A DNA stretch of 64,000 bases, taken from the NCBI GenBank assembly GCA_934699595.1, contig CAKUWT010000001.1, positions 7,839-71,838 of the forward strand, in the 5' to 3' direction. The notes beneath the pieces were generated by a model, which was not told the DNA's origin, did no database searches, and saw only the letters and a list, made by a program, of their open reading frames with translations. Positions 8,466 to 51,597 of the stretch are shown here, piece by piece (positions within the stretch are counted from its first letter, which is position 1; every line of letters begins with the position of its first letter). The position numbers and the translations under genes were made by a program. This DNA comes from an uncultured Patescibacteria group bacterium. Lineage in GTDB: Bacteria; Patescibacteriota; Minisyncoccia; Phycocordibacterales; UBA918.

Positions 8466-11165
8466 ATGGCCACAAAAAAAGATCCGAAAGAAGCGAATAA
8501 TTCCAAGCAACCAGCCAAGGAGACTACTGCATCAAAAAAGTCATTAGCAACTAAGATTACCACTAAGTGGAGTGACCGTAATGAGAAAATCGTGGTGCGG
8601 GGGGCTCGTACGCATAATTTAAAAAATATTGATGTAGAAATGCCACGCGGAAAGATGATTGCTGTAACAGGTCCTTCAGGTTCGGGTAAGTCCTCGTTAG
8701 CTTTTGATACTATTTTTGCGGAAGGACAACGACGTTACGTGGAGTCACTCTCTCCCTACGCTCGACAATTCCTCAACCAGATGCAAAAACCGGATGTAGA
8801 TGAGATTTCTGGTTTGTCTCCAGCCATCTCCATTGATCAAAAATCAGCCAGTCGTAACCCCCGTTCGACGGTGGCCACTATTACGGAGATTTATGACTAT
8901 CTGCGAATTCTCTACGCGCGTATTGGTCAGCCATATTGTCTTGATGTAGACACACCGATTCAAAAACTGTCACAAGACGAAATTTTGGATATTATTTTAA
9001 AGTCTATTACTGATCGAGAAGTGAAAGACGCGACAAAGAAAGACAGTGAGAAGGTGCTGGGAATTGAGGTTAGTAAGGGGCGGGTGGTGATTTTTGCCCC
9101 GGTAGTAGTGGGGCGTAAGGGGGAGTATTACCAGCTACTCTATGATTTACTGAATAAGGGTTTTGAAACGGTTAAAATTGACGGACAGATTAAGCAGTTG
9201 CGTGAACGGATAGAGTTATCCAAAACTAAGCGTCACGATATTGATGTCTTGGTGGACGAGATTTACGTTTCCGAATTTAGCGATGACCCAAAGGGCTCTC
9301 ATGAACGACTGTCTGAAGCTATAGAAGTGGCACTCGGCGTGGCGAATGGATTGGTTAAAATTGAGAGTCCCGGGGGAGAAACCCGTACTTTGTCAGCCAA
9401 GTTCATTTGTCCAGTAGACGGATCGTCTTTTCCAGAAGTGGAGCCACGACTCTTCTCCTTCAACTCACCTTACGGCGCCTGTCCAGAGTGTAATGGTTTG
9501 GGGGTAGTTGGACTGTTTAATGATGAGGAATGTCCGGTTTGTCACGGCGCTCGGCTGCGGAAGGAGGCCTTACGTGTGTACCTTGGAGGTGACGTCGATT
9601 CTTTAGGTATAAATATTGTCGACTTCACCGCAATGACCATTAAAGAGGCAGCCGTTTTTATCGAACGTTTACGTCTAACTCCGCAACAACAAGAAATAGC
9701 TTGGCCGGCTTTGCGGGAGATTATGGAACGGCTGGAATTTATGAATAATGTAGGTATTGAGTATCTTACTCTAGATCGCCGCGCCAATACTTTGTCTGGC
9801 GGCGAGGCGCAGCGTATTCGCCTAGCTTCCCAGCTTGGTTCCGGTTTGGTAGGGGCTTTATATGTACTGGATGAGCCGACAATCGGCTTGCATCAGCGCG
9901 ATAATGATCGCTTGATTAAAACCTTAACCGAGCTACGTGACCTCGGTAACACTATCGTGGTGGTTGAGCATGATGAAGATACTATTAAAGCGGCCGACTA
10001 CTTGGTAGACATCGGCCCTGGGGCTGGAGTCCGAGGAGGTGAGGTAATTGTGACTGGCTATATCAGTGAGTTACTAGCTGCCCCGAAAAATAACAGTGGT
10101 TCCGTAACGCTTGATTATTTACGAGGTGATAAAGTAATCCCAGTTCCCAAACGGCGCACTGGTGAAAAAGGCTCACTAAAAATTAAGGGTGGTAAGGCTT
10201 TTAATATTAAAAACTTAGCAGTAGATATCCCACTAGGGCGTCTAGTTGTAGTGACAGGGGTGTCTGGATCGGGCAAATCTACTTTTATGTACCAGATTGT
10301 GCATAAAAACTTAAAAGCCCGACTTGACCAGCGCAGCCGTTCAACTAAGACTTTTAATTGCGCCAGCTTTACCGGTACTGAGTATTTAGGGAGAGAAATT
10401 CTCATTGATCAGTCACCGATCGGTCGTACTCCCCGCTCTAACCCAGCTACTTATACGGGTGCGTTTACGCATATCCGTGAATTATTCGCCGCTACCACCG
10501 AGGCACAGGTGCGTGGCTGGAAGCCAGGGCGCTTTAGTTTTAACGTCAAGGGTGGCCGCTGTGAAGCTTGCCAAGGGAATGGAGTGATTGCGGTGGAAAT
10601 GCATTTCTTGCCGACAGTGTACGTGACCTGTGATGTCTGTGATGGTAAGCGCTTTACTAAGGAGACCCTAGAAGTTACCTATCGAAAGAAAAATATTTAT
10701 GAGGTGCTGGAAATGAATATTGAGGAAGCGCATGTTTTCTTTCACGATATTCCCGCTATTCAAGAGCGGCTACATACCCTGGTTGAGGTCGGGTTGGGTT
10801 ATCTTAAGTTGGGACAAAGCGCCACCACTTTGTCTGGCGGAGAAGCTCAGCGTGTAAAAATCGCTTCGGAATTGTATAAGCAACATACACAAAAAACAAT
10901 CTACTTGCTGGATGAGCCTACTATTGGCTTGCATTATGAAGATGTGAAGAAACTAATTGAGATTCTGCAGGAGCTGGTAGACCGAGGTAATACCGTGATG
11001 GTGATCGAGCATAACTTAGACTTAGTGAAATCAGCCGATTATGTGATCGATATTGGTCCCGAAGGAGGGGTGGGAGGTGGTCAAATTATTGCCAAAGGAA
11101 CCCCGGAACAAGTGGCTGAGAATCAGAAATCCTATACTGGCTACTACCTAAAGAAGATTCTTTAG
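8466..11165 (+). CDS. uvrA: excinuclease ABC subunit A
   Basis: two ABC ATPase modules ([19 protein letters not shown]), zinc-finger CxxC motifs, LSGGEAQR signatures. Confidence 0.95.
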
Positions 11166-39015: not shown

Positions 39016-42000
39016 ATGGAAAGAGGGCCTGAGCCGCAGATAGGTAGTGGTGACAGAGAGGTTGTAAAATCTTTTGAAGATTTAGAGACTTTGAAAGAAA
39101 GGTTTACTATTGGGGGCGGTAAAGAAGATACGAAAGATGCAGACTTGTCACCATTGCAGCCGTTTGCTAACTATGATGCTGGGCAATCTAAAGTTACTTT
39201 GGGAGAAGTTAATGTTGATACTAGAAGTGGTGATGATAAAATCACTGAGGAAAAGACAGATAAGTCAGTGAGTGATGGCAATGAACATGGTGATATTGAA
39301 GTACCTAGCTATGTTCCTGAAGCTGATCTGGCGTCAGCTGAGAAGCAGAGTGTTTTAGAAAATGGATTAAAAGACGTCGAGAAAAGTGATCTCATTGCCA
39401 ACGCTGGCGACTACACCGAATTACTGTCGGCTATTGATAAGATCGGCACGGTTCCTAGCAGTCAAGGGAGTTACGCACCTAAAGAGTTGAAAGATCTGAT
39501 TAATCAAGTAGTTACTGGTAAGAAAACTCTGGACTACATCACTAGGACTTACGGCTTGAGAGATGCTGTGAATCGCCTCATTGATCAGGTTGCAGTTGAG
39601 GACACTTTTTTAAATAACGACAAATATGAAGCCTATGCTGACAAACGCACTGAGCTACTAGAAAATGGTAAAAGTTTCCGAGCTTTAGAAAAAGATTATC
39701 AGACTGAGGTTGATAATTTCTATAATCAGAGCGGCTTGGCAGGAAATTTTAATAAAGTAAAAAGCTTTTTAGGCTTCCGTCCACAGTTACCAAAAGCGGT
39801 GCAGCAAAAACGTGATGAATATGTGAAAGCTAAAGCCGCCTATGCTCGACTTTTAAATGATTCTTTGCAATTACGTAGTGAGGTGGAGAGGGTTAAGGTA
39901 CTTTCCGACATAAAAACTGGAGAGGGTTTGAATATTGAACGATTCGAGAACAGATCGTACAACCAAGAGGATACTGCCACCAAAGCTGCCTTTTTACAGA
40001 AGTTTGTTCTTAAGCCAAATCAAGAGTTACTTGCTAAACAGGAGGTGTATTTATTGAATGAAGATCAACGAGCTGTTCGTGACCGATTATTACAAAAGTT
40101 TATGAGTAGTAAGTATAAAACTCCGGTGCTAATCGGCGGTGGGGCACTGCTGGTGGCTTCAGGCGGACTGTCTACCTTGGCGGCAATGGGAGCTGGTTTT
40201 GGTGTGCGTAGGCTCACTAGGGGTGGAGTGGAGAAAGCTGAAGCTGATCGTGACAAGCTAAAACAAAGTTTTTCTTTAGATAAACTGGAAGAACAGGAGA
40301 GTAATTTATTATCCGCCGAAGAGACTTTACGTGTCAAGAAAAGAAACCGCAAATATCTCAGTGCGGCGGCTGCTGCGGCTGCTGGCGGCTTAGTCAATAC
40401 ATACGGCGACGGACTTGCCAATAGTCTGAGTCCAATTAGTCGTGCTGAGGCCTCGATCGATCCAGAAGTAATTTATGGTAATGAGTCACTGGACATTCCC
40501 TCATACATTGATCTCACATCGACTGATGTAACCACCCCAGATGACTCGGTTATACCAGGGTTTAATATGACTGATCCGGTAGTTGATGAAGGTCTACCTG
40601 AGTCAGATTTTGAATCAGATTCTACCCTAGAGGTGCCTGGGGAAATCCAGAATGAGGCACTGCAAGAAACTGACCCTACTACTGCAGACATCACGACAGA
40701 TAACACCTTTGTCAGAGAGCGACTGACTTATAGTGACCGCCAGCCAGATTTATCATCGGTTAACAATCTTGGAGCCCCGAGAGAGGTGGATCGGGCACTG
40801 TCTTTTGGTGAAGTAAGATCGCCAGATTCTTTTGAGACAGTATATCAGACTGGACAAGAAATTACTCCGGATATAGAGGTGGTCCCTCACGAATATGTTG
40901 TTACTCGCGGTGACCGTTTGTGGAAAATAGTCGAGCGCGAATTCCCTGACTACTTAAGAGATTTGAATGTTAGTCAACGTAATGCGGCACTTGATGCCTT
41001 GTTTAAAACTATTCAGAATGATCCAGAAACATTGCAAATAATTGGTTTGCAGAGTGGTAACGTGGATCTTATTTATCCTGGTGAGAGTTTAGATCTCAGT
41101 CCTCTTGGAGAAAAACTGCGAAGTGTAGTGCAGGAACGGTTTGGGGTTAGTGTTGATTCTATCGATACCAATCCTGATACCTACCTTGAAACATCTCAAG
41201 TCTCATCTGTCTCTAGTAATCCCACACCTGAACTAGATAAGTTGACTGAGGCACCCTCTCCAGAAAATGCTACTGAGTCAGAAGTTGTAAAAGCTGTGAT
41301 TCCTAATAAACCAACCGATGTAGATTTATCCAGCGCATCAAAAGGGGGAGCTGTTACTCCAACTTCAGAAGATGAGTTTGTGACCCCAGTAACGGAAAAG
41401 ACACCTGGGGCAGATATCCCTGACGGTACCCCACTTGCTCCTGGTGTTGGTGAAAATATTTCTGATAGCATATCACCCGTATCGGATACGAGTGTAGAAA
41501 TTGATATTAACGAGTTAACAAGAAGTTTGCATACTCCCGTACACTATAATCCAGAGGTGCTACCGAACTTATCTGAAGTCAGAATACCTAGTCATGAGGA
41601 ATTGATAGTCACCTTTGGTAGTGAAGAGGCGTATAGTGCGAGAGTTAGGGAAATTATTGCTCAGATTGAAGATGTGCATGAGAGAGGATTTTTTGCTCGC
41701 TTGTTGGGTTCTGGTGATAATTCTTATGACCTGATTGCTGGAACTCCTGTTGAGGAGGTTGTAAATTTGGCCGAGCAGGGTGACCAGGCTATAGAAGATG
41801 CTTTAGCTGATACCGACATTAAGCCCAATGCTCTCCGGGCTTGGGCCAAGTTCGTTCAAGGCTTTTCTGGAAGTCACTTAGCTGGTTTGAAACTGGAAGA
41901 TTTGGTGGCAATTTATGCAGTGAGAACTGAGTTGGGAAAATCATTGGATACCGAAAATTTCACTCTATTAAAAGCTGAAAATCTGCCCACCACTGCGCAG

Positions 42001-42336
42001 TTGGAAGAAGTGTTTGGTAACTTAAATAATCTGCAACAGATTATCAATAGTTATACTTCTCAAGTAGAAGGTTTTAGTCAAGAAGAATTGTCACAACGGC
42101 TGGCAGATAACCGCACAGTCTTTCAACAAATCAGTGAGCGATCAATTGATGATTTGTTGGCCTTGCACGGTCAACCTGATGAGGTTCTCAAGTCAGTAAT
42201 CCCGAGTACTCCAGAAAATACCGCTGCTCTCCGCGCTTGGTTGAAAGTGATTGAGGATATGAAAGTAAGAGGAGAAGTTTCACTGTGGGATACTTTGGTC
42301 AGCTCTTCTTATCACATTAAGTTACAAGAAAAATAA
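39016..42336 (+). CDS. large acidic, low-complexity protein with central TM segment and LysM-like motif
   Basis: 1106 aa, D/E/S/T/P-rich; TM about residues 370-395; YVVTRGDRLWKIV LysM-like stretch. Confidence 0.55.
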   Translation: MERGPEPQIGSGDREVVKSFEDLETLKERFTIGGGKEDTKDADLSPLQPFANYDAGQSKVTLGEVNVDTRSGDDKITEEKTDKSVSDGNEHGDIEVPSYVPEADLASAEKQSVLENGLKDVEKSDLIANAGDYTELLSAIDKIGTVPSSQGSYAPKELKDLINQVVTGKKTLDYITRTYGLRDAVNRLIDQVAVEDTFLNNDKYEAYADKRTELLENGKSFRALEKDYQTEVDNFYNQSGLAGNFNKVKSFLGFRPQLPKAVQQKRDEYVKAKAAYARLLNDSLQLRSEVERVKVLSDIKTGEGLNIERFENRSYNQEDTATKAAFLQKFVLKPNQELLAKQEVYLLNEDQRAVRDRLLQKFMSSKYKTPVLIGGGALLVASGGLSTLAAMGAGFGVRRLTRGGVEKAEADRDKLKQSFSLDKLEEQESNLLSAEETLRVKKRNRKYLSAAAAAAAGGLVNTYGDGLANSLSPISRAEASIDPEVIYGNESLDIPSYIDLTSTDVTTPDDSVIPGFNMTDPVVDEGLPESDFESDSTLEVPGEIQNEALQETDPTTADITTDNTFVRERLTYSDRQPDLSSVNNLGAPREVDRALSFGEVRSPDSFETVYQTGQEITPDIEVVPHEYVVTRGDRLWKIVEREFPDYLRDLNVSQRNAALDALFKTIQNDPETLQIIGLQSGNVDLIYPGESLDLSPLGEKLRSVVQERFGVSVDSIDTNPDTYLETSQVSSVSSNPTPELDKLTEAPSPENATESEVVKAVIPNKPTDVDLSSASKGGAVTPTSEDEFVTPVTEKTPGADIPDGTPLAPGVGENISDSISPVSDTSVEIDINELTRSLHTPVHYNPEVLPNLSEVRIPSHEELIVTFGSEEAYSARVREIIAQIEDVHERGFFARLLGSGDNSYDLIAGTPVEEVVNLAEQGDQAIEDALADTDIKPNALRAWAKFVQGFSGSHLAGLKLEDLVAIYAVRTELGKSLDTENFTLLKAENLPTTAQLEEVFGNLNNLQQIINSYTSQVEGFSQEELSQRLADNRTVFQQISERSIDDLLALHGQPDEVLKSVIPSTPENTAALRAWLKVIEDMKVRGEVSLWDTLVSSSYHIKLQEK

Positions 42337-43128: not shown

Positions 43129-43373
43129 TTATACTATATCTGCCAACACCACTACCCTGGTGAAGAAAATCAAAGCTTTTTAAATGTAGCGCGTGTCTGG
43201 CGTTTTTGAATAGTTGGTCTCCTCCCACATCGCTCGTAAACAAAATGAGACCCCTTTGATGTTATCGCTAGGGTCTCGTGTCGGTAGGTGTGTATGGACT
43301 GATGCCAACGGCGACTTTGCCCCATGCATTCTTGATGGCTTTAAACAGGGTTTGGTAATACCTGAATTCTGTT

Positions 43374-43440
43374 TTATAAAAAAAGCCGCCACTTCGTTGT
43401 GAGACGAAGCTTTGGCTTTTCGTCCCACCGAAGTGGCGGT
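43374..43440 (-). terminator. strong rho-independent terminator for gene 43443..43883 (long imperfect hairpin plus 9-nt T run on the minus strand)
   Basis: GCCGCCACTTCG...CGAAGTGGCGG hairpin with ATAAAAAAA on the + strand. Confidence 0.75.
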
Positions 43441-43442
43441 TA

Positions 43443-43883
43443 TTACTGGAAGCCCAAAGCGACGTGTTTGCACATTTCTTTGAGGTCGTAGAAAGGTTGG
43501 ACACCGGCGATGTCGGCAATCCAGTGATGTTCTGACTTTACTTTCCAGGCGTCAGGAGGATAACCCCAAACGAGGCGACTCTTGAAACGCTCTGGATCAG
43601 AGTAAGCCATACCACCGAGGAAGCCGAGTTCCGTATTCGTGACCCTACCAGGTAGCTGTGTCGGATGGCGAGGAATCCAGCCGACAGCTTTCTTGACAGC
43701 AAGCAATCGCTCCCGTTCCCAGCTGACAATAGTAGTAGGGAAGGCAGATCTGAATCCCCAGTCGTTGTTACGGGGTTCTGGGACTACGATCAGGCCATTG
43801 AAACCCCACTTGCGTAGAAAGTGAACTCCGTACGGTCGCCACTTGAACTCCAGGATATCTTCCCGAGACGACGGACCGAACAA
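43443..43883 (-). CDS. hypothetical protein (TTG start; in-frame upstream extension interrupted by TGA)
   Basis: ORF with its own strong terminator; Trp/Gly-rich, no recognised domain. Confidence 0.4.
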   Translation of the reverse strand: MFGPSSREDILEFKWRPYGVHFLRKWGFNGLIVVPEPRNNDWGFRSAFPTTIVSWERERLLAVKKAVGWIPRHPTQLPGRVTNTELGFLGGMAYSDPERFKSRLVWGYPPDAWKVKSEHHWIADIAGVQPFYDLKEMCKHVALGFQ

Positions 43884-44058: not shown

Positions 44059-44071
44059 TCAAGAGGTTGCT
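44059..44071. repeat. 13-nt direct repeat of the tRNA-Asn 3' end (GCTCCGCGGGCAG); left island boundary (attL-like)
   Basis: exact match to 51311-51323, followed by degenerate tRNA-like sequence (ATTCGA.CTGC). Confidence 0.7.
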
Positions 44072-44243
44072 CCGCGGGCAGATATTTACCCAGATTCGAC
44101 TGCCATCTAAAGATCCTGAAGGCCGTCATAATCAAAAGTCTCAATTATTAGAAACAGAGATATAAAGGAATGCTTGAGCTATGTTAGATTTTCAATACTG
44201 ATTTGTCTTGTAAAGCATTGTCAAGTATAATAACATTAAGCCT

Positions 44244-44426
44244 ATGAAAAACGAGGAGGAATTCTACACCGCCGAGGAGTTGGCTCAAAAACTCAAGGTC
44301 AATATTATGACTATCTACCGCTATATTAAAGCTGGCAAGATAAAGGCGTATAAATTTGGTAAAGAGTACAGGGTTGAGCTGAAGGATTTCGACGCATTTC
44401 TCAAAAAGCACCAATCAAACAAGTAA
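44244..44426 (+). CDS. excisionase-family helix-turn-helix DNA-binding protein (60 aa), possible controller/Xis
   Basis: YTAEELAQKLKVNIMTIYRYIKAGKIKAYKFGKEYRV matches the excisionase/MerR-type HTH; stop 1 nt before the next gene. Confidence 0.7.
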   Translation: MKNEEEFYTAEELAQKLKVNIMTIYRYIKAGKIKAYKFGKEYRVELKDFDAFLKKHQSNK

Positions 44427-44427
44427 T

Positions 44428-47400
44428 ATGAAATTATCAAAAATAATAGATAACAATAGGAAAACCTTACTCGACACTTTTGTCGATGTAAGTGAAAAGC
44501 ATAAAGAACTCTCTATAGCTACTGGCTACTGGGATCTCGAAGGAATGAGAATGCTTCTTCCTCAATTAAGAAACTACGAAAAAATAAGACTCCTAATTGG
44601 TCGAGAACCTCTAATTCCTCGACACCAACTTGAGCAACCTGAACCAGATTATCCTGATCAAGACTTTAAATTTGATTTAACTCATATCAAACCAGAATCT
44701 GAACTCAAGGATCTTGTAACAGAGATCAAACAATGGATTGAATCTGGCAAACTAGAGGTCCGTGTTTACCGCAAAAACTTCTTGCACGCCAAATGTTTTA
44801 TCTTCGGATCATATGATTCTGATGAAGCTATTGGAATTATTGGATCTTCAAACCTTACAAAGAATGGTCTGACTCATAATACCGAACTCAATGCTTTAGA
44901 ATCAGATCATCGTGTAGTTGTTTTTGAGCCTAAGAATAAAGAACAAGAAGTTGGCCACTTGTACTGGTTCGATAGTTTTTGGAATGACGAAGGAACTGAG
45001 AAGTGGGACGAGCAATTTGGATCAATTCTTGAATCATCACCTGTTGGCGATAAGCTTTTCAGTCCATATGAGACGTACATAAAAACTCTTTACGAGTTAT
45101 ACAAAGAAGAGATCATTGATGATGAGCTAGTGGTTAATGAAAGCGATAACGGCAGAACTCTTTTTGATTTCCAACACAAGAATACTCAAGCCCTACTACG
45201 AAGACTGAGAAAGTATAAAGTAGCGATGCTTTCGGACTCTGTTGGTCTTGGCAAAACTCTGACTGCTATCAATGTGATCAAGCAGTATTTAGAAGACGAA
45301 GAAGGTAAAAAACGAGTTGAGATTATCTGTCCTAAATCTTTGGTCCAACAATGGGAAAAGGAAATGGCTACTGAGGGTATTTATAATCACACTCCTATCA
45401 CTCTTCAGAACCCTAACGAAATTGAGAAAAAGCGAGAGCTTGATGCAATTGCAAGTGTTACTTTGTTTGTGATCGATGAATCTCACAACCTTCGACAAAC
45501 CAATGGAAAGCGTTTCAAGCAAGTACTTGACTGGGTACGAGAAAATCCAAAAGCTCACGTCCTATTACTTACCGCTACTCCGATCAATAATCAGTTAAGT
45601 GATCTCACTAACCAGATTCTACTTGGAACTGGTGGTGATGCTGACGGTCTAAGATTGACTGTTGCTGATGAGAATAATCAGACTGAACAAAGAAACTTTT
45701 ATCAGATCGTTGAAAACCTCAGAAAGAAGATTAATCAGGACCTTAAGCGAGATGGAAAAATAGACTATAACCACATTAAACAAGTGATGACTCCGATCAT
45801 CAGAACATTTGTGGTCCGACGTACTCGACAAGGAATTGAACAAGAATATGGGTATTTGATGATCAATGGAGAAAAGAAAGTTTTTCCTATAGTAGTGCCT
45901 GAGGTTCTGGAATACGTACTTGATAACAAGCTTGTTAAGGAGCTTCGATCAGTTACCTCTGAATCGATTCCGCTTGATGAAATATACGAGCTTGATCCTG
46001 AGCAAGTAGTTGAGAAATGTAAGGATCTTAAGCACCCACTAGATCAAATTTCTAATGTATCTAAGAAGTTAGATAAAGAAAAATTGGATGGCGAAAATCC
46101 AATGTATTTCGTATTTCAACTTATATTAATGCTTGGGTTCATTCCATACCGATGGATGATGTATAAGGCTGATTATTATGGGAAGACACGAGATGAAATC
46201 AAAGAATTAAAAATTAGTTCAGATAAAAGCAAGAAGCTACTGCTCCAGCTTGGTATTTTTGGAATCCTGCGGACTGTATTCCTAAAGCGTATGGAATCTT
46301 CAGTAAGTGCCTTAGCTTCTTCTCTTGAAACGTATTCACGCAAATTAGATCTCTTTGAACAAGGAATTAATGAAGGGAGGATTGTATCAATGGATGATCT
46401 TGATGCTCTTGAATCAAGTCTTGGAGATGAAGATGTTGAAGTTGATGAAAAAGCTCTTGAAGAACATACCCTTGATGAGGTTGATGATAAAAGATACGAG
46501 CTAGAGTCACTTAAGAAAGATATTCAACGAGAAAAGCAATTAGTGTCTTTAATTACCGCTCAACTTGAAATTCTAAATAAAGACGACTCCAAGATTAAGT
46601 GTTTTGCGGATCAGCTCAATACTTTGCAAAAGCGGGATCCAAATCAAAAGGTACTTGTGTTCTCGTACTTTGCAGATACCATTAAATATCTCGAAGAGAA
46701 TATTGGTAAATATTGTGATTTTCTTACCGAAGAAAACACTGGTTTTGTTTCCTCAAAAAACAAAGGAGACTCTGAAAATATGGCTTCTCGTTTCTCTCCT
46801 AAATCTAAAAAATATCAACTCAAAGATGGAGAAACTGAACTTCAGTATCTATTTTCAACTGATGTATTGTCTGAGGGCCAAAACCTTCAAGATTCAGGTG
46901 TTCTAGTCAATTACGATCTGCACTGGAATCCTGTGCGTATGATTCAAAGAAATGGTCGTGTAAACCGTCTTGGATCTGAATTTGAAGAGGTATATATCTA
47001 CAATATGAAGCCAGAGCAAAAGCTCGATACCTATCTTGAATTGGTAAAAAGACTTGAAGGAAAGATCAATTTGATCAGAAATACTGTCGGTACTGATACA
47101 CCAGTGCTTGATGAACCAGAAAACCCTATTGAGTACACTGACTCAGTAACAGATATTTATAGCTCTGATGTTGAAACCAGATTGAAGGCTCTACAAGACG
47201 CTGAAAAAGCTTCAGACTTCTTGCTTTCAGAAGATGAGTTTGTGGTTGATTTGAAAAAGTTTAACTCAAACGAAAGCTATCCAAAGGAATATAAAGAGAA
47301 GATCTATCAGATGTCAGATGGTAAATGGGCTGTATGTCCAAAACAAGAAGCTAGAGGCCAAGAACGGCCTGAGGTCTTCGGTCTCGCACGACTCTATTCA

Positions 47401-47913
47401 GAAGCAGAATCAGATCCTATTGGTTATCAGTTCGCAAAAATAGATCGCACGGGTGCACAAATTCAAGCAGTCTCTCAACTGCAAGCTCTTGAGTGGCTGA
47501 GAACTACACCAGAGGATAATGATCGAGTAATGGATAAAATCACTGCTGATAAAGTGGCTGTAAAAGATCAATTGGAATCTAAAGTCATTCAATACTTTGG
47601 GCAAGAAGAAACTGGATCACTCATTGGGCAAGAAAATAATATCCTTAGACTGCTTTACGAAAATGGCTACGCTCAAGAAGAGATTGATTTGGTCCGAGAC
47701 GTCTTTAAGACGACAAACATATTCTACAAACGTGAAGTAGATAAGTTGAAGCGGAATGTAATGCGACAGAAAAATAAAGGTGAAATGTATCAGGATGATC
47801 TGCGAGAGCTTGTAAAACTAGCTAAGGAAATTGATAAGAATACGAACGATGAAGAATCATTAACACCTGAGAAAGTTGAAAGTGTATTGTTTTATGTAAA
47901 TCGAAATGAGTAA
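44428..47913 (+). CDS. PLD-family (HKD) nuclease domain fused to SNF2-family helicase (putative restriction/defense subunit)
   Basis: HKD motif HAKCFIFGS...IGSSNLT near the N-terminus; SNF2 motifs SDSVGLGKT (I), VIDESHNLR (II), QRNGRVNRLGS (VI). Confidence 0.85.
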   Translation: MKLSKIIDNNRKTLLDTFVDVSEKHKELSIATGYWDLEGMRMLLPQLRNYEKIRLLIGREPLIPRHQLEQPEPDYPDQDFKFDLTHIKPESELKDLVTEIKQWIESGKLEVRVYRKNFLHAKCFIFGSYDSDEAIGIIGSSNLTKNGLTHNTELNALESDHRVVVFEPKNKEQEVGHLYWFDSFWNDEGTEKWDEQFGSILESSPVGDKLFSPYETYIKTLYELYKEEIIDDELVVNESDNGRTLFDFQHKNTQALLRRLRKYKVAMLSDSVGLGKTLTAINVIKQYLEDEEGKKRVEIICPKSLVQQWEKEMATEGIYNHTPITLQNPNEIEKKRELDAIASVTLFVIDESHNLRQTNGKRFKQVLDWVRENPKAHVLLLTATPINNQLSDLTNQILLGTGGDADGLRLTVADENNQTEQRNFYQIVENLRKKINQDLKRDGKIDYNHIKQVMTPIIRTFVVRRTRQGIEQEYGYLMINGEKKVFPIVVPEVLEYVLDNKLVKELRSVTSESIPLDEIYELDPEQVVEKCKDLKHPLDQISNVSKKLDKEKLDGENPMYFVFQLILMLGFIPYRWMMYKADYYGKTRDEIKELKISSDKSKKLLLQLGIFGILRTVFLKRMESSVSALASSLETYSRKLDLFEQGINEGRIVSMDDLDALESSLGDEDVEVDEKALEEHTLDEVDDKRYELESLKKDIQREKQLVSLITAQLEILNKDDSKIKCFADQLNTLQKRDPNQKVLVFSYFADTIKYLEENIGKYCDFLTEENTGFVSSKNKGDSENMASRFSPKSKKYQLKDGETELQYLFSTDVLSEGQNLQDSGVLVNYDLHWNPVRMIQRNGRVNRLGSEFEEVYIYNMKPEQKLDTYLELVKRLEGKINLIRNTVGTDTPVLDEPENPIEYTDSVTDIYSSDVETRLKALQDAEKASDFLLSEDEFVVDLKKFNSNESYPKEYKEKIYQMSDGKWAVCPKQEARGQERPEVFGLARLYSEAESDPIGYQFAKIDRTGAQIQAVSQLQALEWLRTTPEDNDRVMDKITADKVAVKDQLESKVIQYFGQEETGSLIGQENNILRLLYENGYAQEEIDLVRDVFKTTNIFYKREVDKLKRNVMRQKNKGEMYQDDLRELVKLAKEIDKNTNDEESLTPEKVESVLFYVNRNE

Positions 47914-50875
47914 TCAAGTATTAGACAAAATTAAAGATATTCAAAAAGAACTCAATGAGCTTGAGGTTAAAAAAGACCTGCCTCAATCACAACGAGTAAT
48001 TGCTTCAATTGTCAGACTTCTTGATGATTCTGTTTCTGTTGATGATCAATCCCTCTTTCAGCTTTTTACTGACAGTGACGGAAAGATCAGAGCTAATGCC
48101 TCTTGGTTCTACGAAGACTCAGTAATGACTGACAGAAAAGCGACATATAAAGTACACCCTCAAAACAACCTTAACCTTGATATTAAGCTCTACGGTATTA
48201 CCAAGCCTTCAAAGCGAACGATTGCTTGGGCTCAGTCACTAACACCAAACTTTGAAGACGAACCTTTCAACAAGAACTTCAATGTTGGAATTGATTTTAT
48301 TGTTCCAAAGAGTGCTGATCGGATCATTGTGGTCCTAAGTAATAACTGGGTTATCCGAACGCTTGAACTTAAGGGCAAGCTTACTGTTACGTTTCAAGAG
48401 ATCCTTGCACGTTGGGCTGAAATAAAAAACTTCGATAACAAAACTGAGCTTCACAATATCCTTTGGGAAAGTTTTGATATTCAGCCTCTCAACAAGAAGT
48501 TTTACTCTGGTATCAGTGAACGCTTTACTCTTCTTCGTCAATATCTTGTTAAGGAAAAGGTGTTTGATGAAAAGCACGCTTCTTTGTTTGCAAACCGACT
48601 TCTTGGTCGAGTTATCTTCTGTTGGTTCTTGGACAAAAAAGGGATCATCAATCCTGACCAGAAGTACTTCGATTCTAAATCTTTTGATAATGACAGTGAA
48701 TACTACAAAACCAAACTAGAAAGACTTTTCTTTGAGGTGTTAAATACACCTATTGAAGATCGAGAATTTAAAGATGATGTAACACCATTTCTAAACGGCG
48801 GTCTTTTTGAAGCACGAAAAAATGATCTTTACAAAAATTCGAAGCTTTCATTCCCGAAGAATTATTTTGACGATCTGTTTGAGTTTCTTTCTGGATACAA
48901 CTTCACAACTGATGAGAGCACGAGTCAGTTCCAGCAAGTAGCGATTGACCCCGAGATGCTTGGTCGTATCTTTGAAAACCTTCTTGCTGAAATGACAGAA
49001 GAGACTGGAGAGCAGGCCCGAAAAGCAAAAGGTGCTTTCTATACACCTCGAGAAATCGTAGACTATATGTGCAAGGAATCGCTCAAGGAATATCTTAAAA
49101 CTAAGATTGAGAAAGATGAGCAGTTGGACCAACGTTTGTATCAGCTTATAGATGCCCCTGATAAAGACTTTCAAGACCAAGACCATAATTGGCGAAGGGA
49201 CTGGAAACCTTACAAATCTGATATTTTGAAGGCTCTTGATGAGCTGAAAGTTCTTGATCCAGCTTGTGGATCTGGGGCGTTTCCAATAGGTATGCTTCAG
49301 CTTCTGGTGCGCGTATATGAGCGTTTAGAGGCTCGTTTTGACTCGTATAAGACGAAATTGGGCATTATAGAGAAGAATATCTATGGTGTAGATATAGAGC
49401 CGATGGCGGTTGAAATAGCACGGCTTCGAGCGTGGCTTTCAATTATCGTTGACGAAGAATCAGATTCTAAAAAGATTAAACCACTTCCAAACCTTGAGTT
49501 TAAATTCATTTGTGCTAACTCGCTTATAGATCTCGATAGGAATAGTAATAATACTTTTGGTGACGATCCAGAACTGCAAGAGAAGCTTGCGTCTATTCGA
49601 GATGCTTATTTCAATACCGAAAGCTTGAACAAGAAAAAGAAACTACGAACTGATTATGAAAAACTGGTAACTCAAGGAGAAGGGTTGTTTGGTGAATCTA
49701 AGAAATCAAAACAATTGAAGACTTATAGACCGTTTGATAATGAGGCTCAAGCTGATTTCTTTGATCCTAAATTTATGTTTGGAGTTGGAGCATTTGATGT
49801 GGTTATTGGAAATCCTCCTTATTATGTCATCAAAAAAACGCATCCCCACCTACGGTATTTTGAAGATAATTATTTTCTTACTAAAGGCGGAAAGAAGAAT
49901 TTGTATAGGCTGTTTTTTGAAAAAGGTTTTAGTTTACTAAAGAAAAGTGGAGTTTTAACGTTTATAACCCCCGACAACTATCTGACAAGTAAAGATAGCA
50001 AGTTACTAAGAAAGAAGATCATTGAAGATCTAAAAATACGCTCGATCATCCATTTCACGGAAAAAGACAGTGTGTTCGAAAGTGCCACTCAAGCGGTTGC
50101 TGTGGTTATCCTTCAAAATGACAGTTTAGATAATTATACCTTCAACTTTAAACAATACGGTGAAGAGTACACATTAGAAAGCCTTTTAATTAAACAAAGG
50201 AAAGGATTTTACATTAAGCCACTACCTGAAATTATTGAAAAAATAGAGTCATTTCCACATCAACTTTCTACTTATGTTGAGGGTTTCCAAGGAGAAATAA
50301 ATGTCTCTACAAAAAAACATTTATTTTCTATAAATAACAACCGAGACTTTTTACCGCTTCTAAGAGGAATGCACATAGGAAGATTCTCTTTAAAAGAAGA
50401 ACCTAAAGAGTATTGCCCTATAGGTGCTCAAAAAAGAGATCACTATAAAGTAGATCGTGTTGTTATTCAGGAAGTTTCAAATTCAGGCTTGAAGCAAAGA
50501 CTAAATGCAGTATTGCTTAATAATTATTTGTGTGGACACACAACTAATTATTTATTTAGTAAGTCTAAGGATTTTGATAATTATTCAATTCTCGGTTTAA
50601 TTAATTCATCATTACTGAACTATTATTTCAAGTTTTACAACCAAACCAACCACGTTCCTATTGGTGAGATAAAACAAATACCTATCCCGAACCTAAAAGG
50701 TAAAAAGAATATTATAAATTCAATTAGCAGAATAGCTAAAGAATTAACCGAAGAACATAGACACAATAATTACGGTGATTTATCCTCAAAAGAGGCTGAA
50801 TTGAACAAGTTGGTCTATAGCTTATATGATCTTACAGAGGAAGAGATTAAAGTTATCGAAGTATCAACATTATGA
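47906..50875 (+). CDS. Eco57I/gamma-class N6-adenine DNA methyltransferase with N-terminal and C-terminal accessory (target-recognition) domains
   Basis: FYTPREIVDYM, LDPACGSGAF (motif I), VVIGNPPY (motif IV); 8-nt overlap with the upstream gene. Confidence 0.9.
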   Translation: MSNQVLDKIKDIQKELNELEVKKDLPQSQRVIASIVRLLDDSVSVDDQSLFQLFTDSDGKIRANASWFYEDSVMTDRKATYKVHPQNNLNLDIKLYGITKPSKRTIAWAQSLTPNFEDEPFNKNFNVGIDFIVPKSADRIIVVLSNNWVIRTLELKGKLTVTFQEILARWAEIKNFDNKTELHNILWESFDIQPLNKKFYSGISERFTLLRQYLVKEKVFDEKHASLFANRLLGRVIFCWFLDKKGIINPDQKYFDSKSFDNDSEYYKTKLERLFFEVLNTPIEDREFKDDVTPFLNGGLFEARKNDLYKNSKLSFPKNYFDDLFEFLSGYNFTTDESTSQFQQVAIDPEMLGRIFENLLAEMTEETGEQARKAKGAFYTPREIVDYMCKESLKEYLKTKIEKDEQLDQRLYQLIDAPDKDFQDQDHNWRRDWKPYKSDILKALDELKVLDPACGSGAFPIGMLQLLVRVYERLEARFDSYKTKLGIIEKNIYGVDIEPMAVEIARLRAWLSIIVDEESDSKKIKPLPNLEFKFICANSLIDLDRNSNNTFGDDPELQEKLASIRDAYFNTESLNKKKKLRTDYEKLVTQGEGLFGESKKSKQLKTYRPFDNEAQADFFDPKFMFGVGAFDVVIGNPPYYVIKKTHPHLRYFEDNYFLTKGGKKNLYRLFFEKGFSLLKKSGVLTFITPDNYLTSKDSKLLRKKIIEDLKIRSIIHFTEKDSVFESATQAVAVVILQNDSLDNYTFNFKQYGEEYTLESLLIKQRKGFYIKPLPEIIEKIESFPHQLSTYVEGFQGEINVSTKKHLFSINNNRDFLPLLRGMHIGRFSLKEEPKEYCPIGAQKRDHYKVDRVVIQEVSNSGLKQRLNAVLLNNYLCGHTTNYLFSKSKDFDNYSILGLINSSLLNYYFKFYNQTNHVPIGEIKQIPIPNLKGKKNIINSISRIAKELTEEHRHNNYGDLSSKEAELNKLVYSLYDLTEEEIKVIEVSTL

Positions 50876-51309
50876 AATCAATAATCTTTGCCAGAGTTTC
50901 AGATAAAAAACAGGACTCAAACGAGGCTCAAGTGTCTCGTATTTCTGAATACATCAGAGCCAAAGATCTTCAGGTTTGGAAAACATATGAGCTTGAAGAG
51001 TCTTCAACTCGTGGCGAATTACTAAAGATGACTATGACAGAAAGTTGAAAGAGCTTAAGTCAAAACAGCACGATCTCAATATACAAATTGAGGACCATAC
51101 TAAGGCAGACGAAAACTACTATATTACTGCTTCTACAGTGTTAAATTTGGCTAAGAGCGCACTGACGCTATTTGAAAGTTCCGAAGTGCACGAAAAAAGA
51201 GCTATGCTCAATTATCTACTTCAGAACTGCGTCGTAAATGGAAAAAAGCTAGAGTTTTCAATACGATCTCCGTTTAACCATATACTAGAATTGCACAATC
51301 AACCTACTA
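50872..51309 (+). pseudogene. serine recombinase remnant (N-terminal catalytic fragment plus frameshifted C-terminal fragment)
   Basis: MKSIIFARVSDKKQDSNEAQ (catalytic Ser motif) stops after 58 aa; the C-terminal-like fragment 51045.. in another frame runs into the tRNA. Confidence 0.55.
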
Positions 51310-51383
51310 GGCTCCGCGGGCAGGATTCGAACCTGCGACCAATCGGTTAACAGCCGACTGCTCTACCGCTGAGCTACCGCGGA
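51310..51383 (-). tRNA. tRNA-Asn (anticodon GTT)
   Basis: manual fold: 7-bp acceptor TCCGCGG/CCGCGGA, D-arm GCTC/GAGC, anticodon loop CTGTTAA, T-arm GCAGG-TTCGAAT-CCTGC. Confidence 0.8.
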
Positions 51384-51597
51384 ATGGTTTTTCTTTAATG
51401 ATGGTTATAATCAGCACTCACTAAAGGCTCAATCGTATATGAAATACATACGATTGAGCCATTGTACTGGCTTTGTTGGTTTTTTTCAACCCCGGTACAT
51501 ATTATTTGTACAAAAAGTGGGGGAAAGCCTCCCTGAAGTTTTCTCAAAAAAGCGTATAATGAGAAGTGGAGCTTATTGGCTTAAAGAATACTGAATT

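What the first reader, a model, noticed from the sequence alone, without database searches (positions are those of the whole stretch)
44428..50875. Two-gene candidate defense/RM system: PLD(HKD)-SNF2 helicase fusion plus Eco57I-type N6-adenine methyltransferase
Gene 1 (1161 aa) has an N-terminal single HKD phospholipase-D-type nuclease motif (HAKCFIFGS...GSSNLT, as in Nuc/BfiI-type DNA nucleases). It is followed by a complete SNF2-family ATPase with motifs I, II (DESH) and VI (QRNGRVNRLGS). Gene 2 (989 aa) overlaps it by 8 nt. Gene 2 is a gamma-class adenine methyltransferase (FYTP, DPACGSGAF, NPPY) with about 330 aa N-terminal and about 300 aa C-terminal extra domains, as expected for a target-recognising RM methylase. 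DISARM class 1 uses the same parts (PLD DrmC, SNF2 DrmD, adenine MTase DrmMI) but also needs DrmA/DrmB. Those are absent here, and PLD and SNF2 are fused. Type III and Type ISP enzymes pair a helicase with a PD-ExK or Mrr nuclease, not a PLD. The architecture therefore looks like a compact, possibly uncharacterised ATP-dependent restriction-like system: translocating PLD nuclease plus modification/recognition methylase.
Basis: partly seen in the sequence, partly recalled or inferred. Interest (0 to 1): 0.85.

Follow-up and report, generated by a model that had tools for sequence, protein, structure and literature searches.

The report
Two-gene PLD-helicase plus methylase restriction module
A nuclease-motor gene and a DNA-methylase gene, always found together, form a probable phage-defence (restriction-modification) pair on a decayed mobile element inserted at a tRNA gene; the pairing has been noticed in silico before but never tested.

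Summary
Gene 1 (44428-47913, 1161 aa) is a single-HKD PLD nuclease fused to an intact Swi2/Snf2 ATPase. Gene 2 (47906-50875, 989 aa) overlaps it by 8 nt and is a gamma-class Eco57I/MmeI-type N6-adenine methyltransferase with a TaqI_C recognition domain.

The pairing is obligate. Every informative related locus (10/10, 62/62, 4/4 and 3/3, plus a Lactococcus plasmid) has the two genes adjacent, and they co-diverge (r = 0.96). No DrmA/B or DUF499 partner ever appears.

New points:
- The pair sits in a 7.25-kb low-GC island integrated at tRNA-Asn. It is flanked by a 13-nt repeat, led by an excisionase-like HTH gene, and followed by an internally deleted large serine recombinase.
- The methylase region after NPPY is a swappable specificity cassette.
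- Its N-terminal 228 aa form a family-specific domain without a convincing nuclease signature.

The best reading is a two-subunit ATP-dependent restriction-modification system. It is not new to the literature: van Mastrigt 2018 proposed the same for a lactococcal homologue, and Milman 2023 listed the context. MANTIS (2026) characterises an analogous PLD-helicase effector. This family remains experimentally untested. Interest is moderate.

The parts
44069..44081 (.). Left copy of the 13-nt direct repeat GCTCCGCGGGCAG, a putative attL that duplicates the 3' end of tRNA-Asn
   Evidence: There are only two copies in the 64 kb window, against 0.03 expected. It coincides with the start of the GC dip. 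L001 has the same tRNA-derived core at its own left border.
44244..44426 (+). 60-aa HTH_17 (excisionase/MerR-type) gene; its stop codon lies 1 nt before the gene 1 ATG. Probably the element's directionality factor or regulator
   Evidence: Pfam HTH_17 at 3.4e-14. PHROG 'excisionase and transcriptional regulator' at 2e-11. It co-occurs with the serine recombinase: about 17 of 19 HTH-positive loci carry it, against 0 of about 20 HTH-negative loci.
44428..47913 (+). Gene 1: PLD(HKD)-Swi2/Snf2 fusion, 1161 aa; the predicted restriction (motor-nuclease) subunit
   Evidence: The best PADLOC model is 'HKD+Snf2' (2.2e-43). The nearest solved relative by sequence is RapA (2e-15).
44503..44913 (+). PLD nuclease domain (aa 26-162) with a single HKD motif: H120, K122 and G139-S-S-N142 are invariant
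   Evidence: PLDc_2 at 6.9e-9 and RE_NgoFVII at 1.1e-4. The residues are invariant in 23 homologues.
45160..47127 (+). Swi2/Snf2 ATPase core (aa 245-900). It contains motifs I (DSVGLGKT), II (DESH), III (TATP) and VI (QRNGRVNRLG), with a long insert between the two lobes
47110..47910 (+). Gene 1 C-terminal domain (aa 895-1161), fold unassigned
47906..50875 (+). Gene 2: gamma-class N6-adenine methyltransferase with built-in recognition domain, 989 aa; the predicted modification and specificity subunit
   Evidence: The PADLOC REase_MTase_IIG model matches at 3e-150. The nearest solved relatives are CamA (1.6e-39), BseCI, PglX, TaqI and BrxX.
47906..48589 (+). Family-specific N-terminal domain of gene 2 (aa 1-228). 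PNFEDE 114-119, D130, D138, R151 and E154 are invariant among close homologues
   Evidence: AF2 model with pLDDT 84. No significant sequence or fold relative was found. The family has 186 clusters at 50% identity and the domain is always N-terminal. It is always paired with PLD-SNF2.
48593..48808 (+). MmeI-type helical spacer (aa 230-301)
   Evidence: Pfam MmeI_hel scores 27.4 bits against a cutoff of 27. The profile also matches MmeI 5hr4 residues 190-264.
49822..50869 (+). Swappable specificity cassette (gene 2 aa 640-988): the C-terminal half of the methyltransferase fold plus the TaqI_C recognition domain (aa 817-927)
   Evidence: L020 is 96% identical in DNA up to 49821. Homology is then lost and resumes at 50870. 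The alignment is hypervariable after NPPY. Many homologues are about 70% identical over only the first 75% of the protein.
50872..51344 (+). Remnant of a large serine recombinase. Residues 1-49 (50872-51018) and 392-500 (51018-51344) survive. About 1,028 bp are deleted and the remnant is frameshifted
   Evidence: tblastn to the L001 recombinase shows 98% identity for both fragments. Intact genes in L001, L019 and L020 retain the missing 1,028 bp. The intact homologue has Resolvase, Recombinase and Zn_ribbon_recom domains.
51310..51383 (-). tRNA-Asn(GTT), the integration target. Its 3' end overlaps the end of the recombinase gene and contains the right repeat copy (51311-51323)
   Evidence: ARAGORN. 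The same arrangement, with tRNA-Asn or tRNA-His, occurs in L001, L006, L008, L009 and L013. Alignment.

Best explanation
The two genes encode a two-subunit, ATP-dependent restriction-modification system.

**Proposed mechanism**
- Gene 2 is the modification and specificity subunit. It recognises a short, probably asymmetric, sequence through its C-terminal TaqI_C-type domain and methylates adenine (N6) to mark host DNA.
- Gene 1 is the restriction subunit. It is a RapA-like Swi2/Snf2 DNA translocase carrying an N-terminal half-site PLD nuclease.
- The methylase's unique N-terminal domain most likely tethers or regulates the motor-nuclease.
- On unmethylated sites the complex hydrolyses ATP and moves on the DNA. 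Cleavage requires two gene 1 protomers to bring their single HKD motifs together into one active site, so it is probably favoured by pairs of sites or by collisions.
- Specificity changes by swapping the cassette that follows the NPPY motif.

**Mobile element**
The module is cargo of a 7.25-kb element that integrated into tRNA-Asn using a large serine recombinase. That recombinase gene is now internally deleted, so the island is fixed in place.

**Shown versus inferred**
- Shown: domain content, motif conservation, obligate pairing, cassette swapping, and the element's structure.
- Inferred: physical interaction of the two proteins, translocation, hemimethylation, a two-site requirement, and anti-phage activity.
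For: **Catalytic integrity**
- Domains and motifs are confirmed.
- The PLD H-x-K and GSSN motifs and SNF2 motifs I, II, III and VI are invariant in 23 homologues.
- Both genes are full length relative to their homologues.

**Obligate pairing**
- 10/10 genome loci.
- 62/62 informative metagenome loci anchored on the methylase N-domain.
- 4/4 loci at 58-59% identity, each in different surroundings.
- 3/3 of the most distant N-domain family members.
- The Lactococcus plasmid pJM1F.
- The 8-nt overlap is the modal arrangement (40/61 loci) and the identities co-diverge with r = 0.96.

**Restriction-modification-like behaviour**
- The region after NPPY is hypervariable. The cassette is exchanged between elements that are 96% identical.
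- The pair lies on mobile elements and next to OLD-TOPRIM plus UvrD genes (Gabija-like by composition) and AbiEi/AbiEii genes.

**No extra conserved partner**

**Precedent**
- In MANTIS, the PLD-SF2 protein MtsD forms a dimer with a single PLD active site. Restriction needs both its nuclease histidine and its Walker A lysine. The methylase hemimethylates asymmetric sites, and inverted site pairs are preferred.
- van Mastrigt 2018 reached the same inference for the lactococcal homologue.
Against: - There is no experimental evidence for any member of this family: no restriction, methylation motif or protein-protein interaction has been shown.
- Many distant PLD-SNF2 proteins in viral contigs have no such methylase nearby (66/80), so the PLD-SNF2 architecture alone does not imply a restriction-modification role.
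- The host is a CPR bacterium, a group in which defence biology is little tested.
- The two-site and dimerisation model rests on analogy alone.
Confidence: 0.65

Rival explanations
1. Gene 2 is a self-sufficient Type IIG/IIL (MmeI- or Cj0031-like) restriction-modification enzyme whose N-terminal domain is a divergent PD-(D/E)xK nuclease. Gene 1 is an accessory or second-layer motor-nuclease, so the system would have two nucleases.
For: - The PADLOC REase_MTase_IIG model matches at 3e-150.
- An MmeI helical spacer follows the N-domain, so the domain sits where MmeI has its nuclease.
- E117, D118, D130, R151 and E154 are conserved. The model has a strand-strand-strand core with D138 before one strand and E154-x-K156 in the next.
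- Milman 2023 calls such genes homologues of Cj0031.
Against: - K156 varies (K/H/N/R) within the family. In Lactococcus D138 is Asn and K156 is His.
- No Pfam nuclease domain is detected, and there is no significant PDB sequence or fold hit.
- van Mastrigt 2018 found no restriction domain in the homologue.
- The domain never occurs without the PLD-SNF2 partner, which is the pattern expected for a docking module.
Confidence: 0.15
2. The pair mainly serves the mobile element as an addiction or stabilisation module, or as an epigenetic regulator, rather than defending the host against phages.
For: - The pair travels with serine or tyrosine integrases and on plasmids.
- Here it remains intact while the element's recombinase has decayed.
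- Phase-variable relatives exist (L162). Cj0031 phase variation is reported to alter methylation patterns and gene expression (title and abstract).
Against: - This role does not exclude restriction: addiction works through the same biochemistry.
- Hypervariable specificity and neighbouring defence genes are typical of anti-invader systems.
Confidence: 0.1
3. It is a degraded or minimal fragment of a larger known system, either DISARM class 1 or the MANTIS/Type-2 BREX-related system, that has lost its other components.
For: - It shares domain types with both: PLD, SNF2 and an Eco57I-type adenine methylase.
- There are DrmD hits at about 1e-32 to 1e-42 and a 'PLD_Helicase' hit.
- Type-2 BR helicases also carry an N-terminal HKD domain.
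Against: - About 80 related loci contain only the two conserved genes, with varied flanking genes. None of the loci carrying Pfam annotations has DrmA/DrmB (DUF1998), DUF499 or DUF3780.
- Scores are far below the curated cutoffs: DrmD 146 against 610, DrmC 20 against 133, phospholipD_antiphage 126 against 1100.
- The methylase carries a private N-domain and is closest to Type IIG and PglX-type enzymes.
Confidence: 0.04
4. Gene 1 is a modification-dependent (Type IV, SauUSI-like) PLD-helicase enzyme that acts independently of the methylase.
For: SauUSI and MtsD share the arrangement of an N-terminal PLD followed by an SF2 domain. Many distant PLD-SNF2 proteins lack a nearby methylase.
Against: - The coupling with a methyltransferase is strict and overlapping, and the two genes co-diverge.
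- No reader domain for modified bases is detected.
- SauUSI does not appear among the PDB sequence hits, whereas RapA-type SNF2 proteins do.
Confidence: 0.03

Closest known systems
Lactococcus/Leuconostoc plasmid orf33-orf34 pair (pLd-type plasmids of L. lactis FM03P; pJM1F of L. cremoris JM1), predicted by van Mastrigt et al. 2018 (PMC6098607); also the 'Cj0031-homologue with upstream PLD+SNF CDS' contexts of Milman et al. 2023 (PMC9881135)
   Same: It has the same two-gene order with overlapping genes. Gene 1 is 35% identical end to end. Gene 2 is 40% identical over aa 66-735, including the private N-domain. The published interpretation is the same: the PLD-SNF2 protein supplies restriction to a methylase that lacks a nuclease.
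   Different: The lactococcal locus adds an inverted spare TaqI_C gene and an Mpi invertase, forming a specificity shufflon. The window has no spare cassette and instead travels with a large serine integrase and an excisionase-like HTH gene. Neither version has been tested experimentally.
MANTIS (Gao_RL / Type-2 BREX-related system; bioRxiv 10.64898/2026.09.23.753747)
   Same: The effector has an N-terminal single-HKD PLD fused to an SF2 ATPase, and it works with an N6-adenine methylase that marks self DNA. The MtsD dimer forms one PLD active site, and restriction needs both the nuclease and the ATPase. This is the best experimental model for how gene 1 may work.
   Different: MANTIS needs MtsA (a DUF499 AAA+ ATPase) and MtsB to load the methylase, and both are absent here. 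Gene 1 scores 126 bits against a cutoff of 1100 on the NCBIfam PLD anti-phage model, and its ATPase is RapA/Snf2-like. The methylase here is an MmeI/PglX-type enzyme with NPPY and its own recognition domain.
Type ISP restriction-modification enzymes (LlaGI, LlaBIII)
   Same: They have the same functional parts list: nuclease, SF2 translocase, gamma-class adenine methylase and recognition domain. They recognise asymmetric sites and cleave by translocation and collision at head-to-head sites (review PMC3874165). This is the closest analogue of the overall logic.
   Different: Type ISP enzymes are single polypeptides with an Mrr/PD-(D/E)xK nuclease. Here there are two polypeptides, a PLD nuclease and a Swi2/Snf2-type motor.
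DISARM class 1
   Same: It has the same domain types: PLD (DrmC), SNF2 (DrmD) and an Eco57I-type adenine methylase (DrmMI). The best NCBIfam hit for gene 1 is DrmD.
   Different: The core DrmA and DrmB are absent from the window and from all related loci. The PLD and SNF2 domains are fused here, and all scores are far below the equivalog cutoffs.
Type IIG/IIL enzymes (MmeI, Eco57I, Cj0031) and BREX PglX
   Same: Gene 2 shares the helical spacer, the gamma-class methyltransferase and the TaqI_C-type recognition architecture. Its specificity region is variable.
   Different: No recognisable PD-(D/E)xK nuclease domain is present. A private N-domain is strictly linked to a separate motor-nuclease. 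No BREX partners (PglZ, BrxC) are present.
SauUSI and CglI/NgoAVII (ATP-dependent restriction enzymes using PLD nucleases)
   Same: A PLD nuclease is driven by an SF2 ATPase. SauUSI has the same N-terminal PLD followed by a helicase.
   Different: SauUSI is a stand-alone enzyme that targets modified DNA. From my own knowledge, not tested here, CglI/NgoAVII split the nuclease and the motor into separate proteins and pair them with an m5C methylase.

Membership tests
PLD-SNF2 + N-domain methylase pair (lactococcal orf33/orf34 family) | PLD(HKD)-SNF2 gene immediately upstream of, and overlapping, the methylase gene | tested here: met
   The overlap in the window is 8 nt. The same arrangement occurs in all informative related loci and in pJM1F.
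PLD-SNF2 + N-domain methylase pair (lactococcal orf33/orf34 family) | Methylase carries the private N-terminal domain, followed by an MmeI-type spacer, an Eco57I-type catalytic domain and a variable TaqI_C recognition domain | tested here: met
PLD-SNF2 + N-domain methylase pair (lactococcal orf33/orf34 family) | End-to-end homology of gene 1, including its C-terminal domain | tested here: met
   35% identity over residues 1-1157 against pJM1F.
DISARM class 1 | DrmA helicase and DrmB (DUF1998) core genes in the locus | tested here: not met
   The flanking genes in the window are housekeeping genes. No third gene is conserved across the loci apart from recombinase and element genes.
DISARM class 1 | DrmD, DrmC and DrmMI equivalog scores | tested here: not met
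   NCBIfam DrmD scores 146 bits against a cutoff of 610, and DrmC 20.1 against 133. PADLOC DrmMI reaches only 4e-18, against 3e-150 for a Type IIG model.
MANTIS / Type-2 BREX-related (Gao_RL) | DUF499 AAA+ ATPase (MtsA) and DUF3780-type MtsB present | tested here: not met
   They are absent from the window. None of the annotated related loci has them.
MANTIS / Type-2 BREX-related (Gao_RL) | Effector with an N-terminal HKD nuclease followed by an SF2 ATPase | tested here: met
   The architecture is met. However, the NCBIfam 'phospholipase D-like domain-containing anti-phage protein' model scores 125.7 against a cutoff of 1100, so gene 1 is not a member of that model's family. Identifying that model with MtsD is my assumption.
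Type IIG/IIL (MmeI-like) RM enzyme | Gamma-class N6A methyltransferase and recognition domain in one polypeptide | tested here: met
   Eco57I, N6_Mtase, MmeI_Mtase, MmeI_hel and TaqI_C all match. The motif order is FYTP, then DPACGSGAF, then NPPY.
Type IIG/IIL (MmeI-like) RM enzyme | N-terminal PD-(D/E)xK endonuclease domain in the same polypeptide | tested here: inconclusive
   The model has a three-stranded core and conserved acidic residues. Against this, K156 is variable and D138 is Asn in Lactococcus. There is also no significant sequence or fold match. The evidence leans towards not met.
Type ISP | Single polypeptide: Mrr-type nuclease, helicase, methylase and recognition domain | tested here: not met
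   There are two ORFs and the nuclease is PLD, not Mrr. The definition comes from PMC3874165.
Type III RM | Beta-class Mod methylase plus a Res subunit with a C-terminal PD-(D/E)xK nuclease | tested here: not met
   The methylase has the gamma-class motif order. The nuclease is an N-terminal PLD. The definition is from general knowledge.
BREX | PglZ and BrxC accompany the PglX methylase | tested here: not met
   The PglX models hit only at 1e-39 to 1e-40 and lie below the cutoffs (137.6 against 500). No PglZ or BrxC is found in any locus.
Large-serine-recombinase integrative element at a tRNA gene | Intact recombinase with Resolvase, Recombinase and Zn-ribbon domains | tested here: not met
   Only residues 1-49 and 392-500 remain, and the remnant is frameshifted. 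The gene is intact in L001, L019 and L020.
Large-serine-recombinase integrative element at a tRNA gene | Insertion at a tRNA 3' end with a flanking direct repeat and atypical base composition | tested here: met
Restriction-modification system (functional definition) | Sequence-specific methylation protects DNA from cleavage by the partner nuclease | not testable with these tools
   This needs methylome sequencing and restriction assays.

The most novel reading that the evidence does not exclude
This family is a mechanistically distinct class of ATP-dependent restriction-modification enzyme. A Swi2/Snf2 chromatin-remodeller-type motor carries half of a PLD active site. It is recruited to unmethylated sites through a previously undescribed 228-aa docking domain on an MmeI/PglX-like methylase, with no AAA+ loader and no DrmA/B. 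Cleavage is licensed by dimerisation of two converging motors, and specificity can be changed by swapping a single cassette after the NPPY motif. In effect it would be a two-piece, PLD-based counterpart of Type ISP enzymes. It is widespread in CPR bacteria and occurs on dairy plasmids.
Probability: 0.5. Interest if true: 0.6.

Novelty: new member of a known kind. Interest (0 to 1): 0.45.

Why it matters
If the pair works as predicted, it is the smallest known methylation-based defence that combines a Snf2-type motor with a PLD nuclease. It would serve as a simple two-protein model for questions still open for DISARM, BREX and MANTIS. One question is how a methylase hands unmodified DNA to a motor-nuclease. 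Another is how hemimethylated asymmetric sites give self/non-self discrimination. A third is how single-HKD nucleases are licensed.

The clean break point at NPPY suggests a natural way to reprogramme specificity. The family also shows that CPR/Patescibacteria, which have tiny genomes, exchange defence cargo on small elements that integrate at tRNA genes.

It matters less as a discovery, because the arrangement was already noted in Lactococcus in 2018 and in an inversion survey in 2023.

Tried and rejected
3. **DISARM and MANTIS/BR membership.** Rejected because partners are missing and scores are below the cutoffs.
4. **PADLOC 'C3a139'.** This turned out to be a cluster of type III CRISPR accessory proteins (Shah 2018), not a defined defence system. 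There is no CRISPR context here.
5. **Third conserved component.** Clustering neighbours across the loci found only the serine recombinase and unknown upstream genes c3, c4 and c5. The unknown genes have no Pfam, PHROG or PADLOC match, are absent from the window and from non-CPR loci, and so are element cargo.
6. **HTH gene as a restriction-modification controller protein.** Rejected in favour of an element excisionase or regulator, because it tracks the recombinase and matches excisionase PHROGs.
7. **Spare inverted recognition cassettes (shufflon) in the window.** None found.
8. **Promoter and terminator scan.** Counts are not above chance. Only one 10/12 promoter-like site lies just upstream of the HTH gene.
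9. **Viral contigs.** Only distant PLD-SNF2 proteins (24-34% identity) were found, mostly without such a methylase, so this subfamily does not appear to be phage-borne.


Full report
**Observation**

The window contains the two ORFs exactly as described. Gene 1 is at 44428-47913 (1161 aa) and gene 2 at 47906-50875 (989 aa). Both are on the + strand and overlap by 8 nt. All quoted motifs are present in the translations.

- Pfam places a PLDc_2 domain at aa 26-162 of gene 1. SNF2-rel_dom/ResIII/DEAD follow at about 245-390 and Helicase_C at 726-849.
- In gene 2, Pfam finds MmeI_hel (230-301), MmeI_Mtase (439-513), Eco57I (490-724, 1.1e-36), N6_Mtase and TaqI_C (817-927).
- In an alignment of 23 gene 1 homologues down to 42% identity, several motifs are invariant. 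These are H120-x-K122, G139-S-S-N142, motif I (DSVGLGKT), motif II (DESH), motif III (TATP) and motif VI (QRNGRxNRxG).
- The PLD domain has a single HKD motif. From established knowledge of Nuc, BfiI and now MtsD, a single HKD motif is half of an active site.
- By sequence, the nearest solved relatives of the ATPase are bacterial RapA and eukaryotic Snf2/ISWI/INO80 remodellers.

GC content falls from about 0.44 to 0.36-0.38 between 44 and 52 kb. The flanking genes are housekeeping genes: a bPH-domain protein, glutaredoxin, hpf, fmt, def and priA.

- *HTH gene.* A 60-aa HTH_17 gene (44244-44426) ends 1 nt before the gene 1 ATG. It matches PHROG excisionase families.
- *Recombinase remnant.* An ATG at 50872 overlaps the gene 2 stop codon and opens the remnant of a large serine recombinase. 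Residues 1-49 (50872-51018) and 392-500 (51018-51344) are about 98% identical to the intact 501-aa protein of locus L001. That protein has Resolvase, Recombinase and Zn-ribbon domains.
- *Deletion.* Near-identical elements (L001, L019, L020) retain about 1,028 bp that are missing in the window. The remnant is therefore frameshifted and non-functional.
- *tRNA target.* The recombinase 3' end overlaps the 3' end of tRNA-Asn(GTT) on the opposite strand (51310-51383). The same recombinase-tRNA overlap is seen in L001, L006 and L009 (Asn) and in L008 and L013 (His).
- *Flanking repeat.* The tRNA-derived 13-mer GCTCCGCGGGCAG occurs exactly twice in the window, at 44069 and 51311, against 0.03 expected. 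L001 has the same core at its own far border, about 13.9 kb away.

The pair is therefore cargo of a 7.25-kb integrative element that is now immobilised. The larger L001 version carries extra genes with no Pfam, PHROG or PADLOC match.

The HTH gene tracks the recombinase. About 17 of 19 HTH-positive loci carry the recombinase downstream, against 0 of about 20 HTH-negative loci. I therefore assign it to the element layer, as a directionality factor or regulator, and not to the restriction-modification core. This correlation is partly phylogenetic.

**The pairing is obligate and autonomous**

| Test | Result |
|---|---|
| Genome loci with sequence downstream of gene 1 | 10/10 have a gene 2 homologue starting at gene 1's stop |
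| Metagenome loci anchored on the methylase N-terminal domain (39-100% identity) | 62/62 informative loci have PLD-SNF2 directly upstream; the remaining locus has only 47 bp upstream |
| Loci from three homologues at 58-59% identity, in unrelated surroundings | 4/4 paired |
| Most distant members of the N-domain family (E 1e-11 to 1e-18) | 3/3 paired, with a 14-nt overlap |

- The unrelated surroundings of the 58-59% loci differ widely. One lies between ilv and serA genes near AbiEi/AbiEii. Two lie beside OLD-TOPRIM plus UvrD genes (Gabija-like by composition) in an element with a primase and a serine recombinase. One lies beside a tyrosine integrase in an actinobacterial-type context.
- An 8-nt overlap is the modal arrangement (40 of 61 loci). 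The identities of the two genes to the window co-diverge with r = 0.96 (n = 49).
- No DUF499, DUF3780, DrmA/B, PglZ or BrxC gene appears in any annotated locus.
- Distant PLD-SNF2 proteins in viral contigs (24-34% identity) mostly lack such a methylase (66/80). Where one is nearby, it aligns only from about residue 176 onward. The strict pairing and the methylase N-domain are therefore properties of this subfamily.

**Anatomy of the methylase**

Residues 1-640 are very strongly conserved, with long invariant runs. Everything after NPPY (636-639) is hypervariable.

Between elements that are 96% identical in DNA (window against L020), homology stops at 49821, which is codon 639/640. It resumes at 50870. 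The C-terminal half of the catalytic fold plus the TaqI_C recognition domain is thus exchanged as one cassette of about 1 kb. This is the behaviour expected of a specificity determinant under diversifying selection.

The closest solved relatives of the catalytic and recognition part are CamA, BseCI, PglX/BrxX and TaqI. MmeI matches only through its helical spacer.

The first 228 residues form a private domain.
- It has 186 clusters at 50% identity among 1.84 billion representatives. It always lies at the extreme N-terminus, and the full-length proteins are about 1,000-1,150 aa.
- The AF2 model is confident (pLDDT 84, pTM 0.78). It shows two N-terminal helices, a beta-rich core (strands 127-134, 140-146 and 149-155) and C-terminal helices.
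- I tested whether it is a PD-(D/E)xK nuclease (E117/D118, D138, E154-x-K156). K156 varies (K/H/N/R) within the family. D138 is Asn and K156 is His in Lactococcus.
- The nuclease reading is therefore not excluded, but it is the weaker one. A partner-docking or regulatory role fits the strict co-occurrence better. This is an inference.

**What is already known**

- van Mastrigt et al. [quoted passage not shown] They noted similarity of domain content to class 1 DISARM, but in a different organisation.
- I confirmed that a lactococcal plasmid homologue (pJM1F) belongs to the same family. That locus additionally has an inverted spare TaqI_C gene and an Mpi invertase. The window has no spare cassette.
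- Milman et al. [quoted passage not shown]
- The best PADLOC model for gene 1, 'C3a139 HKD+Snf2', comes from a survey of type III CRISPR accessory genes.
- A 2026 comparative study defines Type-2 BREX-related systems as DUF499 plus methylase plus HKD-Swi2/Snf2 helicase plus DUF3780 (PMC12839542).
- A 2026 preprint characterises the Type-2 BREX-related system as MANTIS. MtsD is a dimer whose two PLD domains build one active site. Restriction needs its H122 and its Walker A lysine. MtsC hemimethylates asymmetric 6-bp sites. Inverted site pairs are restricted best. MtsA and MtsB are required.
- I found no experimental work on the two-gene family itself.

**Mechanism**

I conclude, with confidence of about 0.65, that this is a two-subunit ATP-dependent restriction-modification system. 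The methylase is the sequence reader and self-marker, and the PLD-Snf2 protein is the translocating nuclease.

- The requirement for two HKD motifs implies that cleavage needs two motor subunits. By analogy with Type ISP enzymes and MANTIS, this suggests hemimethylation of asymmetric sites and a preference for paired or converging sites.
- These last steps are inferred, not shown.
- The main rival (about 0.15) is that gene 2 is a complete Type IIG enzyme with a cryptic nuclease and that gene 1 is an accessory effector.
- The remaining rivals are each minor. They are an element addiction or epigenetic role, a remnant of DISARM or MANTIS, and a Type IV-like enzyme.

**Novelty and score**

The locus is a new, CPR-borne member of a family whose architecture and probable function were already proposed in silico. 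Relative to characterised systems, the family is a compact variant of ATP-dependent methylation-based defence.

The new observations here are:
- the strictness of the pairing
- the private N-domain
- the exact cassette break point at NPPY
- the decayed serine-recombinase element at tRNA-Asn.

A specialist would find it a worthwhile experimental target but not a surprise. Interest is 0.45.

Noticed in passing
window 39016-42336 (+): A 1106-aa ORF just upstream of the island region has no Pfam match at E <= 0.01. It is a large uncharacterised protein in a CPR genome.
   Followed up: no
window 43443-43883 (-) and overlapping minus-strand ORFs at 43180-43519: A 146-aa ORF with no Pfam match lies between the bPH-domain gene and the left border of the island. 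Its GC content is host-like, so it is probably not part of the element.
   Followed up: partly
window 1-64000: GC skew is positive in every 2-kb bin and the cumulative skew rises monotonically across the whole window. This is consistent with a single replication arm. No origin or terminus signal falls within the window.
   Followed up: no
window 44203-44231 (+): A sigma-70-like site (TTGTCT-17-TATAAT, 10/12 matches) lies 13 nt upstream of the HTH gene, exactly where DNA conservation between elements begins (about 44198). Promoter-like counts in the region are not above chance.
   Followed up: partly
window 51423-51463: A 16-nt inverted repeat (94% complementary, 9-nt loop) lies just beyond the 5' side of tRNA-Asn and overlaps a terminator-like site.
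   Followed up: no
L001 4246-18171; also L003, L006, L007, L009, L013 upstream of gene 1: Larger versions of the element carry recurrent genes of about 380 aa (c3), 104 aa (c4) and 480-520 aa (c5), plus two genes of about 495 aa in L001. None has a Pfam, PHROG or PADLOC match. This is unknown CPR mobile-element cargo that is absent from the window.
   Followed up: partly
L001, L019, L020 vs window: The element is 91-96% identical in DNA between contigs whose flanking sequences do not align with the window. This suggests recent horizontal spread of the element among Patescibacteria.
   Followed up: partly
L016/L017 17486-20279; L015 18133-19535: In other lineages the pair sits beside OLD-family TOPRIM ATPase and UvrD-helicase genes (Gabija-like by composition), and near AbiEi/AbiEii. 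These are defence-island neighbourhoods.
   Followed up: no
L162 (Lactococcus cremoris pJM1F) 8763-10230: An inverted stand-alone TaqI_C specificity gene and an Mpi-family invertase follow the methylase. This is a probable specificity shufflon for this restriction-modification family. It is consistent with the programmed inversions reported by Milman 2023.
   Followed up: partly
L005 5976-7739; L010 17921-19636; L013 3943-5637: Additional or displaced large serine recombinase genes occur near the pair. In L005 one overlaps a tRNA-Asn on the other side of the pair. This suggests tandem or rearranged elements at tRNA sites.
   Followed up: no
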